The notes below the pieces were generated by a model. The model saw nothing but the letters and a program-made list of their open reading frames with translations, was not told the origin of the DNA and did no database searches. From Escherichia phage Lilleven: a stretch of 6,090 bases of DNA. The stretch lies in sequence record MK629527.1; one strand, 5' to 3'. The translations under genes were made by a program, and so were the position numbers. This document shows positions 1-6,090 of the stretch, piece by piece (position 1 is the first letter of the stretch; each line of letters begins with the position of its first letter).

Positions 1-1485
1 ATGGCTACTGAAATCTTCTCTGATGTTGTTAAGTCTGTTTGGTCGCACGCTACGGCTAAGCATGCTCATCTTCGTATGGCTGTTCAGGTTGATAATCGTA
101 GCCGCCTTCTTTCTGACCTCGTTTATCAGTTGGAAAAACGCCTTTCTGAAGAGACTCATTTGGATGGCGATATTTTTGCCGTTTATGAATCTCAGACCGC
201 CCTTCTGGAAGACCATATGGCATTGGTTCGGAAGTGTGCAGCCCAACTTGATAATAGTAACACTATAGACCACCGCACCTCCTTGGATGCCGAATGTGTT
301 TTCCTGTTTGAGATGATTTGTCCAGGTGTTCGTTACGGTAAAACGTTGAATTCTCTTTGGACTAAGTATGTCGCCCAGTGGCCTGAGAAGTTGATTCGTC
401 AGGAGTTGGATATGGTTAAGCCTTTATCCTTTAAGGATGAGGTTGCTAAGTACATGGAGAAAATGCAGGAAAAAACACGCAAGAATCGCATGACTCAGAA
501 AGTCATTAATGAGATGCGTATTGCTCACCAAAAGGGCTGGTTCTTCGTATTTGATACGTTGACCCTTGCTGATGACCGTTTGCAGGCTTTTAATGAAAAC
601 CCCAATGCTCTTCGTGATTATTTTAGGACTGTTGGTCGAGCTGTTCTGCGCGCTGAAGGTCGTTCGGTTAAAGATTCCTACAACGATTGCTATCGCTATC
701 TTTGTGTGCCGGAGTTTGGAGGTCAGCACGGCCGTCTTCATTGGCACGTTGTGCATATGGTGCGGACTCTCCCTTTGGGAAGTCACGACCCTAATTTCGG
801 TCGCAAGGTACGTAATTATCGCCAGATTAACTCGTTCCGTGGCATGTGGCCCTATGGCTTCACGCAACCGATAGCCGTTCGCTATCAGCATGACGCTTAT
901 TCCCGCAAAGGTTGGCTTTGGCCTGTTGACAAAACAGGAAAAGCAATGCAGAGTAAGCCGTATCAGGCGGTCGCATGGTATGTGACCAAGTATGTAGCTA
1001 AGCAATCTGACCAGCGTCAGAAAGCTATTACCGAGAGGCAAAAGAAATGCAAGAATCCATTAATGGCAATCTGTCTGAAGAAAGTATTTCGGGTTCGCAG
1101 CAGTCGGAAGCTTGGAATGGAGCTCCCGTCAATGGCTCACCTGAGCAACAGGGTGCTTCTGGAACTGAGCCGAATCAGTTTCGATTCCAGTCCTCTGTAT
1201 CAGATAGTGAAAGAGAACGCCAAAAAGCAATTGACCTTGAACATCGGCGCGCTGCCTTTGCACGTCATTTTGGATGTGCGCCCGGAAGTGAGAAGCATGT
1301 TGAAAACTATTCGTCGTTTGATGAAAAAGACACCCGAGTTCAATTGGCAGAGTTCTATCGCTTCAATGACGGTCACTTTAAAAAATGGGGATATTTCTGA
1401 TGAAGCACGTCAATACATTATTGATGCAGGAATTACGCCTACTGATTTGCGAGCTAAAGCTACTCAAACTTTCGGCGGTAAGTGA
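1..1485 (+). CDS. A: Replication initiation protein A (rolling-circle nicking-joining endonuclease)
   Basis: 494-aa ORF; translation is collinear with phiX174 gene A protein as I recall it (e.g. DGWFxVFDTLTLADDRLxAFxxNPNALRDYFR, VRYxxDAxSRxGWLWPVD, C-terminal ...GGK). Paired catalytic tyrosines in WYVTKYV (codons 979-981 and 991-993) and an HxH motif (GRLHWHVVH). Contains the 30-nt origin. If the molecule is circular, the upstream frame is closed by TAA at 6040-6042 with no ATG before position 1. Confidence 0.92.
   Translation: MATEIFSDVVKSVWSHATAKHAHLRMAVQVDNRSRLLSDLVYQLEKRLSEETHLDGDIFAVYESQTALLEDHMALVRKCAAQLDNSNTIDHRTSLDAECVFLFEMICPGVRYGKTLNSLWTKYVAQWPEKLIRQELDMVKPLSFKDEVAKYMEKMQEKTRKNRMTQKVINEMRIAHQKGWFFVFDTLTLADDRLQAFNENPNALRDYFRTVGRAVLRAEGRSVKDSYNDCYRYLCVPEFGGQHGRLHWHVVHMVRTLPLGSHDPNFGRKVRNYRQINSFRGMWPYGFTQPIAVRYQHDAYSRKGWLWPVDKTGKAMQSKPYQAVAWYVTKYVAKQSDQRQKAITERQKKCKNPLMAICLKKVFRVRSSRKLGMELPSMAHLSNRVLLELSRISFDSSPLYQIVKENAKKQLTLNIGALPLHVILDVRPEVRSMLKTIRRLMKKTPEFNWQSSIASMTVTLKNGDISDEARQYIIDAGITPTDLRAKATQTFGGK
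244..273 (+). other. Viral (+) strand origin of rolling-circle replication (A-protein recognition and nick site)
   Basis: CAACTTGATAATAGTAACACTATAGACCAC matches the 30-nt phiX174-group origin (CAACTTG^ATATTAATAACACTATAGACCAC) at 28 of 30 positions. Expected nick between G250 and A251. Lies inside gene A as in phiX174 and G4. Confidence 0.85.
454..1485 (+). CDS. A*: A* (in-frame internal restart product of gene A)
   Basis: In phiX-like phages A* starts at an internal in-frame Met about one third into A. ATG at 454 (MEKMQEK...) follows AAGGATGAGG (433-443) and aligns with the phiX A* start region (MKSRRGFAIQRLMNAMRQAH vs MQEKTRKNRMTQKVINEMRIAH). In-frame ATGs at 463 and 490 are alternatives; exact start not resolvable by eye. 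Confidence 0.4.
   Translation: MEKMQEKTRKNRMTQKVINEMRIAHQKGWFFVFDTLTLADDRLQAFNENPNALRDYFRTVGRAVLRAEGRSVKDSYNDCYRYLCVPEFGGQHGRLHWHVVHMVRTLPLGSHDPNFGRKVRNYRQINSFRGMWPYGFTQPIAVRYQHDAYSRKGWLWPVDKTGKAMQSKPYQAVAWYVTKYVAKQSDQRQKAITERQKKCKNPLMAICLKKVFRVRSSRKLGMELPSMAHLSNRVLLELSRISFDSSPLYQIVKENAKKQLTLNIGALPLHVILDVRPEVRSMLKTIRRLMKKTPEFNWQSSIASMTVTLKNGDISDEARQYIIDAGITPTDLRAKATQTFGGK
1047..1400 (+). CDS. B: Internal scaffolding protein B (encoded within A in an alternative frame)
   Basis: 117-aa ORF inside A. C-terminal half resembles phiX174 B (..AEFYRFNDGHFKKWGYF vs phiX ..AEFYRFHDAEVNTFGYF); Gln/Glu/Ser-rich N-terminus. SD GAGG at 1035-1038, 8 nt before ATG 1047. Confidence 0.85.
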   Translation: MQESINGNLSEESISGSQQSEAWNGAPVNGSPEQQGASGTEPNQFRFQSSVSDSERERQKAIDLEHRRAAFARHFGCAPGSEKHVENYSSFDEKDTRVQLAEFYRFNDGHFKKWGYF

Positions 1486-2277: not shown

Positions 2278-2293
2278 GGCCTTCGGGCCTTTT
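2278..2293 (+). terminator. J-F intergenic hairpin (GGCC-UUCG-GGCC) followed by TTTT; weak terminator or mRNA-stability element
   Basis: 4-bp G/C stem 2278-2281/2286-2289 with TTCG tetraloop 2282-2285, then TTTT 2290-2293, immediately upstream of the F SD AAGGA (2294-2298). The position matches the leaky T_J terminator of phiX-like phages. Confidence 0.45.
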
Positions 2294-3603: not shown

Positions 3604-3621
3604 ATGGGCCTTCGGGCCCAT
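3604..3621 (+). terminator. F-G intergenic hairpin (7-bp stem, UUCG tetraloop); weak terminator or mRNA-stability element
   Basis: ATGGGCC (3604-3610) pairs with GGCCCAT (3615-3621) around TTCG (3611-3614), followed by TTAAGGATTTTTC carrying the G SD. Same module as at J-F. Not followed by a clean T-run, so terminator function is uncertain. Confidence 0.45.
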
Positions 3622-3633
3622 TAAGGATTTTTC

Positions 3634-4197
3634 ATGTATCAAAATTTTGTTACTAAGCACGATACCGCTATTCAGACCTCCCGTTTCTCTGTTACTGACA
3701 GTATCACTCCTGTTGCGCCTACTGGTGATATCCCTATTATCAATACTGGTAATATTACTGCTGAGCGTGCTGTTGTTAGTCTTTATGCTAATTTGGCCGC
3801 TGACACCTCTTCTGATGGTTCTTTTATTGTTGCTATGAAGGTTGATACTTCTCCTGCTGATCCTAACTGTGTTATCTCTGCTGGTGTTAACCTTAGCTTT
3901 GCTGGTACCTCATACCCGATTGTTGGCATTGTTCGTTTTGAGTCTGCTTCTGAACAGCCCACTTCTATTGCTGGTAGTCAGATTGAGCGTTACCCTATTG
4001 AAATGTCTGTGGGCTCTGGTGGTGTCTGTTCTGCTCGTGATTGCGTTACTGTTGATATTCATCCTCGCACCTTTGGCAATAATGTTTTTGTTGGTGTGAT
4101 TTGCTCCAGTGCTAAATGGACCTCCGGCCTTGTGCTTGGTACTATCGCTACGACTCAGGTTATTCATGAGTATCAGGTTCTTCAGCCGCTCAAATAA
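3634..4197 (+). CDS. G: Major spike protein G
   Basis: 187-aa ORF at the position of G. Shares the conserved C-terminal region with phiX174 G (VRFES.S..PT.....YP, KDCVT.D..PRT.GNNV.VG, C-terminal QVI.E...LQPLK). SD AAGGA 3623-3627, 6 nt before ATG. Confidence 0.93.
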
Positions 4198-4332
4198 AAG
4201 GCCACCGCACCCCCGGTTATGTGTCTGCCCAGTGTAGGGTGGACCGAGCCGTACGGAGATACCCGATAAACTAGGAACGTGGAAGGCGTTAGCCGCCTTC
4301 CCTCCTGCTAAGCCCAAAAAGGAGCTTACAAT
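4198..4332 (+). other. G-H intergenic region: G+C-rich structured spacer, candidate complementary-strand (primase-dependent) origin
   Basis: 135-nt untranslated spacer, visibly more G+C-rich than the flanking genes. Contains CCACC/GGTGG complementarity (4202-4206 vs 4238-4242), the palindrome CCGTACGG (4249-4256), an 8-bp hairpin (4281-4301), and the H SD AAGGAG (4319-4324). Assigning it as the minus-strand origin rests on analogy with G4-type origins and an uncertain recollection of older alpha3/St-1 work. Confidence 0.35.
4281..4301 (+). terminator. Hairpin in G-H spacer (possible T_G-like leaky terminator or origin stem-loop)
   Basis: GGAAGGCG (4281-4288), loop TTAGC, CGCCTTCC (4294-4301); perfect 8-bp stem. 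No T-run follows, so function is ambiguous. Confidence 0.35.
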
Positions 4333-5331
4333 ATGTTTGGAAGTATCATTGGAGGCATTGGCTCATCGCTGCTCGGAGGACTTGCTTCCGGCGGTATCTC
4401 CAGCCTCCTTAATAAAATGTTCAGTAAAATGCCAGAACATGCCGCTTCTTCTGCTGGTCTTACTAATGGTCAAGGTACTATTGGTATGGATACTGATGCT
4501 GGTATTCAGTCTGCTATTCAGGGCTCTAATGTTCCTCCTGCTGGTCAATTACCCGCTTCCAACACTTCTGGTGTTATGGCTGATGCTGGTAATATGATTC
4601 GTAATGCTGGCAGAGCTTTGCTTGATGGTACGATTCAGGCCGGTTCTGACAAGGTTAAAGAGGCTCTTATTGATAAGTTGGTTGGAGGTAATGATGCTAA
4701 AGACCGAGGAAAGGCAACCCGTGATTACTTGGCGGCAGCTTTCCCTGAGCTCAACCCATGGGAACGTGCTGGAGCTGGTGCTTCCACTGCCGGGTTAGAA
4801 TCTTCTGCTCAGAATCAACAAAAAGAGATGCTTAAAATGCAACTGGATAACCAGAAAGATATTGCAAAAATGCAGATGGATAACAATTTGCAGATTGCTG
4901 GTATTCAGTCTGCTACATCTCGCCAGAACACGAAGGATTCTGTTTATGCCCAGAATGAGATGCTTCAGTATAATCAACGTGAGTCGCAGGCACGCGTTGC
5001 GTCTATCCTCGCCAACACTGACCTTACGACTAAGCAGGCCACCCATGAAATTATGAGGATGGCTCTTACTCGTGCTCAGGAAACCGGTCAGCATTTGACT
5101 AACTCTCAGATTATGGCTTTGGAGAAAAAGGTTTATGCAGAAATTGGAAAAATTCATCAAGATACTCAAAATTCTCGCTATGGTAGCTCTCAAGTTACTG
5201 CCGCCGCGAAAGACGTTACTAACATGATTACTGACGCTTCTTCAGGTTTTGCTGATTGGGCTTCCCAGCAGTGGAATTCGTTCTTTAAAGATGGTAAGTC
5301 TGACGGTATTCCTCTCAATACTAGAAAATAA
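4333..5331 (+). CDS. H: DNA pilot (minor spike) protein H
   Basis: 332-aa ORF. Gly-rich N-terminus MFGSIIGGIGSSLLGG.. and long collinear matches to phiX174 H (AGIQSAIQGSNVP, TRDYLAAAFPELN.WERAGA, KMQLDNQK.IA.MQ, IAGIQSATSRQNTKD.VYAQNEML.Y.Q.ES.ARVASI, QNSRYGSS). SD AAGGAG 4319-4324. Confidence 0.93.
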   Translation: MFGSIIGGIGSSLLGGLASGGISSLLNKMFSKMPEHAASSAGLTNGQGTIGMDTDAGIQSAIQGSNVPPAGQLPASNTSGVMADAGNMIRNAGRALLDGTIQAGSDKVKEALIDKLVGGNDAKDRGKATRDYLAAAFPELNPWERAGAGASTAGLESSAQNQQKEMLKMQLDNQKDIAKMQMDNNLQIAGIQSATSRQNTKDSVYAQNEMLQYNQRESQARVASILANTDLTTKQATHEIMRMALTRAQETGQHLTNSQIMALEKKVYAEIGKIHQDTQNSRYGSSQVTAAAKDVTNMITDASSGFADWASQQWNSFFKDGKSDGIPLNTRK

Positions 5332-5358
5332 TTGTTGACATTCCTTGAACCTTTATGT

Positions 5359-5396
5359 GACTCTTGCTTCAATAAAACGAAGTAGGAGTCTTTTTT
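5359..5396 (+). terminator. Rho-independent terminator-like hairpin downstream of H; 3' arm contains the SD of the next ORF
   Basis: GACTCTTGCTTC (5359-5370) pairs with GAAGTAGGAGTC (5379-5390): 12 bp including two G.U pairs, loop AATAAAAC, followed by TTTTTT (5391-5396). The 3' arm contains AGGAG (5384-5388) and the ORF ATG follows at 5397. A perfect -35 hexamer TTGACA sits at 5335-5340. Confidence 0.6.
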
Positions 5397-5765
5397 ATGA
5401 AACCCGCTCACCGCCTTTATCATCCTGTGCTTGGTTCTTGGTTGTTTAAGTGTCCCGTTTATATTCGTTATGAGTCCCTTCATCATGGCCGCCTCATTAA
5501 GGTTCGTGCTGTTCGTGACCTTTCTCCGCGTCAGCAGTTGATTGCCAATCCTAAAAATTGCTTTGACGTTGTTATTGCTGAAATTGACGTTACTCACCTT
5601 TCTGTCACTTGGTATGATTTTCAAGCCGAAGAGTATGTCGAGTGTGATTCCGGCACTATGGAGCTTCTTCTTTCTCAGGTAAATTCTGGCGAGGTTATTC
5701 GCTCCTCCGAAGACCTGTTTGTTGATGTTGATGATATGGAATGGCTTTATGAAATTGTGGAGTAA
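5397..5765 (+). CDS. Hypothetical protein (122 aa) in the H-A intergenic region; no recognisable family
   Basis: ORF with SD AGGAG (5384-5388) 8 nt before ATG. Codon usage by eye matches the phage's structural genes (T-ending codons cgt, gtt, ctt, tct, gct, gat). Same strand as all known genes. Translation MKPAHRLYHPVLGSW...DVDDMEWLYEIVE has an acidic C-terminus and no motif I recognise. Confidence 0.5.
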   Translation: MKPAHRLYHPVLGSWLFKCPVYIRYESLHHGRLIKVRAVRDLSPRQQLIANPKNCFDVVIAEIDVTHLSVTWYDFQAEEYVECDSGTMELLLSQVNSGEVIRSSEDLFVDVDDMEWLYEIVE

Positions 5766-5768
5766 GTC

Positions 5769-5858
5769 ATGGAAACTGTTATTGGAAAATTTATTGCTCT
5801 GGCCGTTGTTGCTCTTATGCTGTATGGAATTTCTCGCTTGATTCGGAGGTTCCCGTGA
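5769..5858 (+). CDS. Hypothetical small membrane peptide (29 aa, single predicted transmembrane helix)
   Basis: Not in the ORF track. ATG 5769 is 3 nt after the stop of the preceding ORF and 6 nt after GGAG (5759-5762). METVIGKFIALAVVALMLYGISRLIRRFP: about 17 hydrophobic residues followed by a basic tail. Very short, so chance is not excluded. Confidence 0.3.
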   Translation: METVIGKFIALAVVALMLYGISRLIRRFP

Positions 5859-6031
5859 AATATTTTAGTTTTGTAGATGAACATTATGCTTACTGCCCTG
5901 ATACAAGGATTTTGCACATCACTCGCAGTCGTATTTCTGACCCTCGGTATGAGCGTTGCTTTCTTACTGACGAGGAGCATCTTGCACTTTTGGATTGGTT
6001 GAAAAATTATCCAACTTTCATTAATTCTTGA
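5855..6031 (+). CDS. Hypothetical protein (58 aa), GTG start overlapping the upstream stop (GTGA)
   Basis: Not in the ORF track. GTG 5855 overlaps the TGA of the 29-codon ORF, with GGAGG (5845-5849) 5 nt upstream. Translation (M)KYFSFVDEHYAYCPDTRILHITRSRISDPRYERCFLTDEEHLALLDWLKNYPTFINS; T-ending codon bias like the rest of the genome. Stop TGA 6029-6031 overlaps the -35 hexamer of the promoter before A. Confidence 0.35.
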   Translation: MKYFSFVDEHYAYCPDTRILHITRSRISDPRYERCFLTDEEHLALLDWLKNYPTFINS

Positions 6032-6057
6032 CAGACCTTTAAAATACCCTCTATATT
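6028..6057 (+). promoter_or_regulatory. Candidate sigma70 promoter for gene A (P_A)
   Basis: TTGACA (6028-6033), 18-nt spacer, TATATT (6052-6057): consensus -35 and near-consensus -10. Located about 35-60 nt upstream of the gene A ATG if the window is circular (position 6090 joins position 1). Confidence 0.55.
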
Positions 6058-6087
6058 GCCCTCATAGTTTCACTACGAGGGCTTTTT
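6058..6087 (+). terminator. Terminator-like hairpin plus T5 between the P_A -10 and the A start codon (T_H-like)
   Basis: GCCCTC (6058-6063) pairs with GAGGGC (6077-6082), plus inner TAG/CTA pairs (6065-6067 vs 6073-6075), then TTTTT (6083-6087). The 3' arm contains GAGGG, the likely SD for A. The 5' arm starts right after the -10, so P_A-initiated transcripts would probably lack it. Confidence 0.5.
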
Positions 6088-6090
6088 CGC

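What the first reader, a model, noticed from the sequence alone, without database searches (positions are those of the whole stretch)
5335..5399. Terminator hairpin after H sequesters the SD of the first intergenic ORF
A 12-bp hairpin plus T6 directly follows a consensus TTGACA, and its 3' arm contains the AGGAG used by the ORF at 5397. Transcripts reading through from H would both terminate here and mask the SD. A transcript initiating inside the hairpin would leave the SD free, which could couple expression of the cassette to promoter choice. The arrangement (TTGACA, about 20 nt, hairpin with SD in 3' arm, T-run, ATG) is mirrored with almost identical spacing upstream of gene A (TTGACA to ATG is 62 nt here versus 63 nt there). 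This suggests a duplicated or convergent regulatory module, although no acceptable -10 is seen for the upstream copy.
Basis: seen in the sequence. Interest (0 to 1): 0.6.

Follow-up and report, generated by a model that had tools for sequence, protein, structure and literature searches.

The report
Duplicated promoter-terminator hairpin after gene H
The hairpin just after spike gene H of this alpha3-like coliphage is a second copy of the known phiX174 "pA-T_H" promoter/terminator/ribosome-site module, so the hairpin is ordinary; the mildly new parts are that the module is duplicated and that it sits in front of three conserved small genes that reference annotations miss.

Summary
A 12-bp hairpin (5359-5390, -17.9 kcal/mol, z = -6.1) plus T6 lies 27 nt after the H stop codon. 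It follows a consensus TTGACA (5335-5340), and its 3' arm holds the AGGAG (5383-5387) of an ORF starting at 5397.

The window is the whole genome of an Alphatrevirus, Escherichia phage Lilleven. The same layout is the described pA-T_H element of phiX174 and also occurs in G4: H stop, TTGAC(A/T), 17-18 nt, a weak -10, a hairpin with the next gene's SD in its 3' arm, a T-run, then ATG. In phiX174 the annotated start site lies inside the hairpin.

Alphatreviruses carry the module twice, once after H and once before gene A (6028-6090). Between the copies lie three ORFs under purifying selection that RefSeq does not annotate.

There is in fact a conserved TRTG extended -10 (TATG, 5354-5357) next to GACTCT, as in phiX174 pA.

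Across about 23 relatives the -35, its spacing, the TRTG and the lower stem are almost invariant. The T-run is not: three contigs lack it.

Best reading: a T_H-type terminator and SD-masking hairpin overlapping a weak promoter. Promoter activity and termination are untested. Known kind, new member.

The parts
5329..5331 (+). Stop codon (TAA) of gene H (4333..5331)
   Evidence: ORF list. Homology to annotated H of alpha3, St-1 and others.
5335..5340 (+). Consensus -35 hexamer TTGACA of the H-proximal pA-like element, 3 nt after the H stop
   Evidence: Sequence. TTGAC is invariant and A is present in 13 of 16 distinct upstream segments. G4 has TTGACT at the same place, 3 nt after its H stop.
5354..5357 (+). 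TATG, a TRTG-type extended -10 motif (inferred)
   Evidence: Conserved as TATG (11 of 16) or TGTG (4 of 16); only phiK has TATT. phiX174 pA has the same motif one nt before its -10, and 9 of 10 substitutions there are detrimental (paper 10.64898/2026.07.25.740675).
5359..5364 (+). GACTCT: candidate degenerate -10 hexamer (A at position 2 and T at position 6 only), 18 nt after the -35. It is also the base of the 5' arm.
   Evidence: Invariant in all relatives, with a fixed 18-nt spacer. A rough PWM ranks this site 8th of 30,450 position/spacer combinations on the + strand. The consensus promoter scan did not call it.
5359..5370 (+). 5' arm of the hairpin (GACTCTTGCTTC)
5371..5378 (+). Loop (AATAAAAC). 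The predicted start site of the embedded promoter is about 5371, 7 nt after the hexamer, as in phiX174.
   Evidence: Geometry by analogy with phiX174: -10 ends at 3955 and the start site is 3962. Inferred.
5379..5390 (+). 3' arm of the hairpin (GAAGTAGGAGTC)
5383..5387 (+). Shine-Dalgarno AGGAG of ORF1, fully inside the 3' arm, 9 nt before the ATG
   Evidence: Sequence. Annotated as a ribosome_binding_site in the alpha3 record M25640. P(unpaired) is 0.001 in read-through RNA.
5391..5396 (+). T6 tract (U-tract of the terminator)
   Evidence: It varies in relatives: T6, T5, T4, TTTATT, TTTATC, TTTGCTT, TCTC, TCTATC.
5397..5765 (+). ORF1, 122 aa: a conserved gene specific to Alphatrevirus and not annotated in RefSeq
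   Evidence: dN/dS is 0.19 overall and 0.07 in the N-terminal half. It is intact in 13 of 15 genomes. Homologs occur only on contigs of about 6 kb or shorter, all microvirus-sized or fragments. The AF2 model has pLDDT 89.
5769..5858 (+). ORF2, 29 aa, hydrophobic peptide
   Evidence: Intact in 15 of 15 genomes. Called as a gene on metagenome contigs.
5855..6031 (+). ORF3, 58 aa. Its GTG start overlaps the ORF2 stop (GTGA), and its own stop TGA lies inside the next TTGACA.
   Evidence: dN/dS is 0.08 and it is intact in 15 of 15 genomes. The start becomes ATGA in NC29; ID32 also has an ATG start. It is 100% identical to 'hypothetical protein [Escherichia phage Lilleven]'.
6028..6057 (+). Gene-A-proximal promoter pA: TTGACA, 18 nt, TATATT
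   Evidence: 11 of 12 consensus matches and the top promoter-like site in the window.
6058..6087 (+). Second hairpin (GCCCTCATAG/TTTCA/CTACGAGGGC, 6058-6082) with the gene A SD GAGGG (6077-6081) in its 3' arm, then T5 (6083-6087). Gene A starts at position 1.
   Evidence: -14.2 kcal/mol. It shows compensatory changes in ID32, ID62, St-1 and L033: 2 pairs changed on both sides, and only 6 of 500 shuffles reach the observed covariation score.

Best explanation
The hairpin 5359-5390 with its U-tract is the alphatrevirus counterpart of the phiX174/G4 T_H terminator. It is embedded in a copy of the 'pA-T_H' module: promoter, terminator hairpin and ribosome site all overlapping. Alphatreviruses have two such modules in tandem, one right after H (this finding) and one right before gene A. 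They bracket three small conserved genes.

Proposed mechanism:

1. Transcripts arriving from gene H (late transcripts from the upstream promoters) fold the hairpin as RNA, and a fraction terminate at the U-tract, near 5396-5400.

2. Transcripts that read through keep the AGGAG of ORF1 locked in the stem, so ORF1 is poorly translated from them.

3. RNA polymerase starting at the embedded weak promoter (-35 TTGACA, 18-nt spacer, TRTG extension, degenerate -10 GACTCT) would begin at about 5371. That RNA lacks the 5' arm, so it neither terminates here nor hides the SD.

Shown: the anatomy, the conservation, the thermodynamics, and the identity of design with phiX174 and G4. Inferred: actual termination, translational masking and, least certain, promoter activity.
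For: - Structure. The hairpin folds at -17.9 kcal/mol (z = -6.1) and is the best hairpin-plus-T-run on the + strand. It is far weaker as DNA (-6.1 kcal/mol, z = -2.8), because two of its pairs are G-U. That points to the + sense RNA as the folded form.

- Same design elsewhere. phiX174 has TTGACA 3927-32, TTTCAT, hairpin 3956-74 with GGAGG in the 3' arm, T6, and ATG of A at 3981. RefSeq places the start site at 3962, inside the hairpin. G4 has TAA-TGC-TTGACT-18-TAATAT-GCCTCC...GGAGGC-TTTT-C-ATG.

- Published phiX174 data. Logel & Jaschke describe a promoter-terminator overlap, 'pA-T_H', with a net 0.29-fold change in transcriptional current. The 2026 saturation mutagenesis shows that the T_H 3' stem is the gene A RBS and that a TATG (TRTG) extension is essential for pA.

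- Conservation in 23 distinct alphatrevirus sequences. TTGAC, the 18-nt spacing, T-R-T-G and GACTCTT/AGGAGTC are essentially invariant while the spacer sequence varies. The single wobble pair that varies becomes G-C (5 sequences) or A-U (2 sequences), never a mismatch. In L031-L034 the upper stem is replaced by different sequence that still pairs (-13.9 and -14.1 kcal/mol, or -18.4 with the 2-bp extension). In L096 ORF1 has diverged to 57% nucleotide identity, yet the leader stays at 80% and the hairpin folds at -16.4 kcal/mol.

- SD masking. The cost of opening the RBS is 17.6 kcal/mol in read-through RNA and 7.3 kcal/mol in RNA starting at 5371. The gene A module gives 15.6 versus 6.7.

- Redundancy. 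NC35 has lost the gene-A-proximal -10 and 5' arm through a 29-nt deletion but keeps this module with T5. L031, L032 and L096 lack the T-run here but keep the gene-A-proximal hairpin with T5. Every genome where both sites could be read keeps at least one hairpin plus T-run.
Against: - There is no transcript-end or expression data for any alphatrevirus.
- No pair shows a change on both sides in the 15-sequence alignment (0 pairs; 213 of 500 shuffles reach the observed covariation score). Structure is therefore supported by conservation and by the remodelled variants, not by classical covariation. The invariant lower stem could be conserved for the SD and the -10 alone.
- The -10 hexamer matches the consensus at only 2 of 6 positions, and the consensus scan did not call a promoter here. 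phiK has lost the G of TRTG.
- The U-tract is degenerate in many relatives and absent in L031, L032 and L096, so termination cannot be the universal function.
- In phiX174, mutations in the T_H 5' stem are mostly tolerated (13% detrimental). The hairpin as such may therefore contribute little to fitness under laboratory conditions.
- RNA starting at 5371 is still predicted to pair its SD weakly with a downstream CAUCCU (P(unpaired) 0.07).
Confidence: 0.6

Rival explanations
1. It is only a terminator and 3'-end stabiliser for H-containing mRNAs. The upstream TTGACA/TRTG is a decayed relic of a duplicated pA with no promoter activity, and the SD overlap is a by-product of squeezing the next gene against the terminator. 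ORF1-3 would then be expressed only from read-through RNA.
For: The -10 hexamer is 2 of 6 and was not called by the consensus scan. The second copy, 690 nt downstream, has a near-consensus promoter (11 of 12), so a promoter here is not obviously needed. The gene-A-proximal module uses the same packing of hairpin, SD and start codon.
Against: A relic should decay. Instead TTGAC, the exact 18-nt spacing and T-R-T-G are conserved in all lineages while the spacer sequence between them varies, and A/G exchange at the R position keeps the motif. This holds even in L096, where ORF1 has dropped to 57% nucleotide identity. NC35 has lost the gene-A-proximal -10 and still must transcribe gene A. phiX174 pA has an equally poor hexamer (TTTCAT) and depends on the same TRTG.
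Confidence: 0.22
2. It is mainly a translational attenuator or RNA-stability hairpin for ORF1, and termination is incidental. The conserved property would be an SD locked in a stem, which keeps ORF1 (and the coupled ORF2/3) at low level on every transcript that contains the 5' arm.
For: The SD-containing hairpin survives where the U-tract does not. L031 and L032 have tail TCTC, with the stem extended to within 2 nt of the ATG (-18.4 kcal/mol). L096 has tail TCTATC (-16.4 kcal/mol). The opening cost is 17.6 kcal/mol.
Against: In the window and most relatives a T4-T6 run, or TTT followed by 3-4 mixed bases (TTTATT, TTTATC, TTTGCTT), directly follows the stem. The homologous phiX174 element measurably removes transcriptional current. 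Every genome keeps at least one hairpin plus T-run between H and A, which suggests termination is selected.
Confidence: 0.12
3. It is a structure of the packaged single-stranded DNA, for example a signal for complementary-strand synthesis, packaging or a host protein, rather than of RNA.
For: The genome is ssDNA of + polarity, so the hairpin could form in the virion strand. phiX174 does use an intergenic hairpin for PriA.
Against: As DNA it is marginal (-6.1 kcal/mol, z = -2.8, 3 of 200 shuffles as good). Two conserved G-T positions are good pairs only in RNA. A much stronger structured region that fits an origin lies in the G-H spacer (-52 kcal/mol). The element has the full promoter/SD/T-run context of pA-T_H.
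Confidence: 0.03
4. It is a chance inverted repeat with no function.
For: The loose terminator scan finds no more sites in the window than in shuffles (3 versus 5.4 expected).
Against: z = -6.1 with 0 of 200 shuffles as good. The element is conserved in all 23 related sequences, in a non-coding stretch where the neighbouring spacer varies freely.
Confidence: 0.01

Closest known systems
phiX174 pA-T_H element (overlapping promoter pA, terminator T_H and gene A ribosome site in the H-A spacer)
   Same: Both lie just after the H stop. Both have a consensus TTGACA, a 17-18 nt spacer, a TRTG extension with a degenerate -10 at or touching the stem, a hairpin whose 3' arm is the SD of the next gene, T6, then ATG.
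   Different: The downstream gene here is ORF1, not gene A. The stem is longer (12 bp versus 7-8) and so swallows the -10 hexamer. The module occurs twice in this genome. Here the -10 keeps A at position 2, where phiX174 has T. Nothing has been measured in alphatreviruses.
G4 H-A junction
   Same: TAA, 3 nt, TTGACT, 18 nt, TAATAT, GCCTCC-loop8-GGAGGC, TTTT, C, ATG. The 3-nt offset from the H stop and the 8-nt loop are the same as in the window. By global alignment it is the best match to the window's gene-A-proximal copy (z = 6.2).
   Different: It is a single copy, directly before gene A, with a good -10 and no TRTG.
Fold-back inhibition of read-through transcripts in insertion sequences (IS10/Tn10, IS50/Tn5). 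Recalled from my own knowledge; no paper was read for this.
   Same: It works the same way. RNA entering from outside contains both arms of a hairpin that hides the ribosome site, while RNA from the element's own promoter starts inside the hairpin and is translatable.
   Different: It is unrelated in sequence and context, and those elements have no associated intrinsic terminator. This is a mechanistic analogy only, not membership.
Ordinary Rho-independent terminators, including the T_J- and T_F-like GGCC-TTCG-GGCC hairpins of this same genome
   Same: A stem-loop followed by a T-run, downstream of a gene, on the coding strand.
   Different: This stem is AU- and GU-rich (5 G-C of 12) with a large 8-nt loop. 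It carries an SD inside the stem and a promoter-like element over its 5' side. In T_J and T_F the SD follows the hairpin instead.

Membership tests
Rho-independent (intrinsic) terminator | Stable stem-loop in the nascent RNA on the transcribed sense | tested here: met
   12 bp, -17.9 kcal/mol, z = -6.1. The G-U pairs make it specific to RNA and to the + strand.
Rho-independent (intrinsic) terminator | U-rich tract immediately 3' of the stem | tested here: met
   T6 at 5391-5396. In relatives it ranges from T6 to TTTGCTT, and it is absent in L031, L032 and L096. The feature is met in this window but is not universal in the genus.
Rho-independent (intrinsic) terminator | Transcript 3' ends are produced at the site | not testable with these tools
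   I found no alphatrevirus transcript data. The homologous phiX174 element lowers transcriptional current to 0.29-fold.
phiX174-type pA-T_H module | Located directly after the gene H stop codon | tested here: met
   TTGACA starts 3 nt after TAA. The gap is 3 nt in G4 and 9 nt in phiX174.
phiX174-type pA-T_H module | Consensus -35 plus TRTG-extended, degenerate -10 abutting the terminator stem | tested here: met
   TTGACA, 13 nt, TATG, 1 nt, GACTCT. This is conserved across 16 distinct upstream segments and matches the phiX174 layout reported. Only the sequence features were tested, not activity.
phiX174-type pA-T_H module | The 3' arm of the hairpin contains the SD of the next gene, followed by a T-run and the start codon | tested here: met
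   AGGAG at 5383-5387 lies inside 5379-5390, followed by T6 and ATG at 5397.
phiX174-type pA-T_H module | The downstream gene is the replication gene A | tested here: not met
   The downstream gene is ORF1 (122 aa, no family match). The second copy at 6028-6090 does precede gene A. This copy is therefore a paralogous or duplicated instance, not the orthologous pA-T_H.
phiX174-type pA-T_H module | Transcription starts inside the hairpin | not testable with these tools
   Predicted at about 5371 by the 7-nt rule used by phiX174: -10 ends at 3955 and the start site is 3962.
Sigma70 promoter (consensus definition) | -10 hexamer with at least 4 of 6 matches to TATAAT | tested here: not met
   GACTCT matches at 2 of 6 (A at position 2, T at position 6) and was not reported by the scan. 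With the TG extension, a rough PWM built from recalled base frequencies still ranks it 8th of 30,450.
SD-sequestering translational control hairpin | The SD is base-paired in one RNA form and free in another | tested here: inconclusive
   P(unpaired) of the SD is 0.001 in read-through RNA, with an opening cost of 17.6 kcal/mol. In RNA starting at 5371 the cost is 7.3 kcal/mol, but a weak alternative pairing remains (P(unpaired) 0.07). The existence of the short RNA is unproven.

The most novel reading that the evidence does not exclude
The H-proximal copy is an active promoter-inside-a-terminator switch. It would make the three conserved, unannotated, Alphatrevirus-only genes (ORF1-3) a separately controlled transcription unit. 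That unit would be shielded from late read-through at both the transcriptional level (terminator) and the translational level (masked SD), and expressed only from its own weak constitutive promoter. The cassette and a duplicated pA-T_H module would have been acquired together, giving alphatreviruses an accessory early operon that phiX174 and G4 lack.
Probability: 0.3. Interest if true: 0.55.

Novelty: new member of a known kind. Interest (0 to 1): 0.35.

Why it matters
The hairpin does not reveal a new mechanism. Recognising it as a second pA-T_H module does three useful things.

1. It gives alphatreviruses (alpha3, St-1, phiK, Lilleven and others) a concrete, testable transcription map for the 759-nt stretch that RefSeq records leave empty.

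2. It draws attention to three genes under purifying selection, with confident predicted folds and no known relatives. Reference annotations omit them, and their expression this element would control.

3. It offers a natural duplicated version of the phiX174 promoter/terminator/RBS overlap, with natural knock-outs of each half: NC35 lacks the second promoter and hairpin arm, and L031 and L096 lack the first T-run. These could be used to separate the contributions of termination, SD masking and internal initiation. In phiX174 that separation is hard, because one copy serves the essential gene A.

Tried and rejected
- Rfam (evalue mode, whole window). Nothing at the site; the only hit is a sub-threshold chance match elsewhere.

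- Classical covariation on the H-proximal hairpin. No pair changed on both sides, and the score is indistinguishable from shuffles. I do not claim covariation support for it. The gene-A-proximal hairpin does show some.

- Metagenome pattern scan, TTGAC-N19-GACTCTT-N10-40-AGGAGTC. It gave 58 stretches, but only 3 (L064, L082, L090) are alphatrevirus; the rest are random matches.

- An upstream in-frame ATG at 5355, which gives a 136-aa ORF1 in alpha3, NC3 and ID62. I rejected it as the real start. In the window it is followed at once by TGA, and the frame is not kept where the T-run or loop length differs.

- An alternative promoter inside the hairpin, TTGAAC-17-(TG)-TTCAAT at 5345-5373. It is specific to this window and not conserved in relatives: alpha3 has CTAAAC and TTCAAC.

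- Pfam, PHROGs and NCBIfam for ORF1-3. No family.

- Profile-profile comparison of ORF1 with ORF3. Unrelated.

- Profile search of 1.8 billion representatives. Only three clusters, all alphatrevirus-like.

- Literature. Rokyta et al. 2006 could not be retrieved. I did not try to retrieve the Kodaira alpha3 papers. I therefore cannot say whether the original alpha3 papers already described this hairpin. The 1980s record M25640 does annotate the AGGAG as a ribosome-binding site.
Full report
**What the window is.** The 6090-nt window is a complete circular microvirus genome that starts at the ATG of gene A. Gene H is 4333..5331, and the 'H-A intergenic region' is 5332..6090. Its 58-aa ORF3 product is 100% identical to 'hypothetical protein [Escherichia phage Lilleven]' on a 6090-nt contig. 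Lilleven is a published Alphatrevirus (MK629527, 6090 nt; PMC7552041). In the phage collection the closest record for the H-A region is alpha3, at 94% identity. All 26 records with a match are alpha3-like.

**Checking the observation.**
- TTGACA at 5335-5340
- 5' arm 5359-5370, loop 5371-5378, 3' arm 5379-5390
- AGGAG at 5383-5387, inside the 3' arm
- T6 at 5391-5396
- ATG at 5397, opening a 122-aa ORF

The terminator scan lists the site as 12 pairs with an 8-nt loop. As RNA the hairpin is -17.9 kcal/mol, against -4.8 +/- 2.1 for shuffles (z = -6.1). It is the strongest hairpin-plus-T-run on the + strand of the genome. As DNA it is only -6.1 kcal/mol (z = -2.8), because two stem positions are G-U pairs. 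That argues for a function in + sense RNA. The mirrored module before gene A is also real: TTGACA-18-TATATT, a 10-bp hairpin at 6058-6082 with GAGGG in its 3' arm, T5, then ATG. The spacings of 62 and 63 nt are correct.

**What it corresponds to.** The same architecture is the textbook H-A junction of the other two Bullavirinae genera.
- phiX174: TAA, 9 nt, TTGACA (3927-32), 17 nt, TTTCAT, hairpin 3956-74 with GGAGG in the 3' arm, T6, ATG of A at 3981. RefSeq annotates the pA start site at 3962, inside the hairpin.
- G4: TAA, 3 nt, TTGACT, 18 nt, TAATAT, GCCTCC-N8-GGAGGC, TTTT, C, ATG of A.

Logel & Jaschke describe this as a promoter-terminator overlap, 'pA-T_H', whose net effect is a 0.29-fold change in transcriptional current. 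A 2026 saturation-mutagenesis preprint adds two points. The T_H 3' stem is the gene A RBS: 63% of detrimental hairpin mutations lie in the 3' stem and 13% in the 5' stem. And pA relies on a TATG (TRTG) extension just upstream of its degenerate -10, where 9 of 10 substitutions are detrimental.

**The missed -10.** But TATG sits at 5354-5357, one nucleotide before GACTCT and 13 nt after TTGACA. This is the phiX174 arrangement with an 18-nt rather than a 17-nt spacer. Across 16 distinct upstream segments from 29 related sequences the profile is TA.tTgTTGACat...c..a.cCcTT.TgaGACTCTT. TTGAC is invariant. The spacer is free in sequence but fixed in length. TRTG is kept as TATG (11) or TGTG (4) and is broken only in phiK. 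A/G exchange at the R position is the one substitution tolerated in phiX174. A rough PWM built from remembered consensus frequencies ranks the site 8th of 30,450 on the + strand. Its top four sites fall where pA, pB and pD are expected, which suggests the PWM is sensible. This is a promoter-like conservation signature, but promoter activity itself is untested.

**Is the hairpin conserved as a structure?** All 23 distinct variants fold, at -13 to -19 kcal/mol. In the 15-sequence alignment no pair changes on both sides, so there is no formal covariation. The only variable wobble pair becomes G-C in five sequences and A-U in two, never a mismatch. Eight of 180 cells are unpaired, all in the upper stem.

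Two more divergent lineages are informative. In L031-L034, where ORF1 carries a 32-aa insertion, the upper stem and loop are replaced by unrelated sequence that still pairs. The pairing is modestly better than shuffled interiors, with 20 of 2000 (L031) and 143 of 2000 (L033) shuffles matching it. In L096, ORF1 is only 57% identical at the nucleotide level, but the 71-nt leader is 80% identical and folds at -16.4 kcal/mol (z = -4.7). For comparison, the gene-A-proximal hairpin does show compensatory changes, in ID32, ID62, St-1 and L033: 2 pairs are changed on both sides, and only 6 of 500 shuffles reach the observed covariation score.

**Termination versus masking.** The U-tract is the least conserved part. 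It is T6, T5 or T4 in some genomes, TTTATT or TTTATC in others, and TTTGCTT, TTTGTTT or TTTACTT in the ID21/ID32-like group. It is missing in L031 and L032 (TCTC) and in L096 (TCTATC). In those three the TC pairs with an upstream GA and lengthens the stem almost to the ATG (-18.4 kcal/mol for L031). The SD-in-stem feature is universal.

The computed cost of opening the ribosome site is 17.6 kcal/mol in read-through RNA and 7.3 kcal/mol in RNA starting at 5371. The gene A module gives the same contrast, 15.6 versus 6.7. There is a pattern of redundancy. NC35 has a 29-nt deletion that removes the gene-A-proximal -10 and the first six bases of its 5' arm, but keeps the H-proximal module with T5. 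The three contigs that lack the H-proximal T-run keep the gene-A-proximal hairpin with T5. No genome in which both sites could be read lacks both. That suggests one terminator between H and A is required, and that the two copies back each other up.

**Duplication.** Both copies begin TAATT(G/C)TTGACA and share ACCTTTA shortly after. Global alignment of the two scores z = 4.9 against shuffles, similar to each copy against phiX174 or G4. Because shared functional motifs drive much of that score, I treat common origin by duplication as likely but not proven. The H-proximal -35 sits at the same 3-nt offset from the H stop as in G4. The gene-A-proximal hairpin/SD/ATG matches G4 best (z = 6.2). This is what one expects if a cassette of about 690 nt, together with a duplicated module, was inserted into an ancestral single pA-T_H.

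**The cassette.** The three ORFs between the two modules look like real genes.
- ORF1 (5397..5765) has dN/dS 0.19, and 0.07 in its N-terminal half. Variable columns by codon position are 43, 34 and 96. The off-frames give dN/dS above 1. It is intact in 13 of 15 genomes. The two exceptions are single-base frameshifts, in the 1992 alpha3 record (the resequenced DQ085810 is intact) and in St-1.
- ORF3 (5855..6031) has dN/dS 0.08. Its GTGA start/stop overlap with ORF2 becomes ATGA in NC29, and ID32 also has an ATG start.
- ORF2 (29 aa, hydrophobic) is intact everywhere.

**Verdict.** It most likely acts as a partial terminator and SD-masking hairpin for transcripts leaving H, overlapped by a weak TRTG-dependent promoter whose transcripts would start in the loop. 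Confidence is good for the hairpin and terminator identity and moderate for masking. It is under one half for promoter activity. Nothing here is experimentally tested in an alphatrevirus.

Noticed in passing
window 5397-6031: Three ORFs in the so-called H-A intergenic region (122, 29 and 58 aa) are conserved across all alphatrevirus genomes examined. dN/dS is 0.19, 0.39 and 0.08. ORF2 and ORF3 are coupled by a GTGA/ATGA overlap. RefSeq records do not annotate them. They have no family match and occur only on microvirus contigs of about 6 kb or shorter.
   Followed up: partly
L006 (NC35, NC_007820) about 700-729, aligned to window 6035-6063: NC35 has a 29-nt deletion that removes the gene-A-proximal -10 (TATATT) and the first six bases of the 5' arm of the second hairpin. 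That leaves TTGACAG|ATAGTTTT...GAGGAC. Gene A in this viable phage must be transcribed from further upstream or from a very poor promoter.
   Followed up: partly
L031/L032 1121-1203; L096 752-822: Three metagenome alphatrevirus contigs have no T-run after the H-proximal hairpin (tails TCTC and TCTATC). Instead the stem is lengthened by GA/TC to within a few nt of the ATG. L031-L034 also carry a 32-aa insertion after codon 3 of ORF1 and a remodelled upper stem.
   Followed up: partly
L003 (NC_001330, alpha3), aligned to window about 5524; L005 (St-1), aligned to window about 5560: Single-base deletions break ORF1 in the 1992 alpha3 record and in the St-1 record. The resequenced alpha3 (DQ085810) is intact, so at least the alpha3 case looks like a sequencing error.
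   Followed up: partly
window 4198-4332 (G-H spacer): This is a very strongly structured 135-nt spacer: -52 kcal/mol over 4190-4340, with several G+C-rich hairpins. From memory of the St-1/phiK/alpha3 literature it is probably the primase-dependent complementary-strand origin. I did not check this.
   Followed up: no
window 2278-2289 and 3604-3621: GGCC-TTCG-GGCC and GGGCC-TTCG-GGCCC tetraloop hairpins follow genes J and F, and each is followed by ...AAGGA and the next start codon. They are likely T_J and T_F equivalents. Here the SD follows the hairpin rather than lying inside it.
   Followed up: no
window 6029-6031 within 6028-6033: The stop codon TGA of ORF3 is part of the -35 hexamer TTGACA of the gene-A-proximal promoter. 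In phiK the hexamer is TTGGCA and ORF3 runs on (70 aa).
   Followed up: no
window 926-954, 1687-1715, 1715-1743: The best promoter-like sites on the + strand after pA lie where phiX174 has pB and pD: TTGACA-17-CAGAGT upstream of gene B, and TTGACG-17-TATCTT plus TTGACC-17-GATATT upstream of gene D.
   Followed up: no
window 5345-5373: A second promoter-like match overlaps the hairpin in this genome only: TTGAAC, 17 nt with TG, TTCAAT. It is not conserved in relatives.
   Followed up: partly
[not shown]
   Followed up: partly
window 4813-4878: A sub-threshold Rfam match to Tombus_3_IV lies inside gene H (24.1 bits against a gathering score of 33, E = 0.09). It is almost certainly chance.
   Followed up: no
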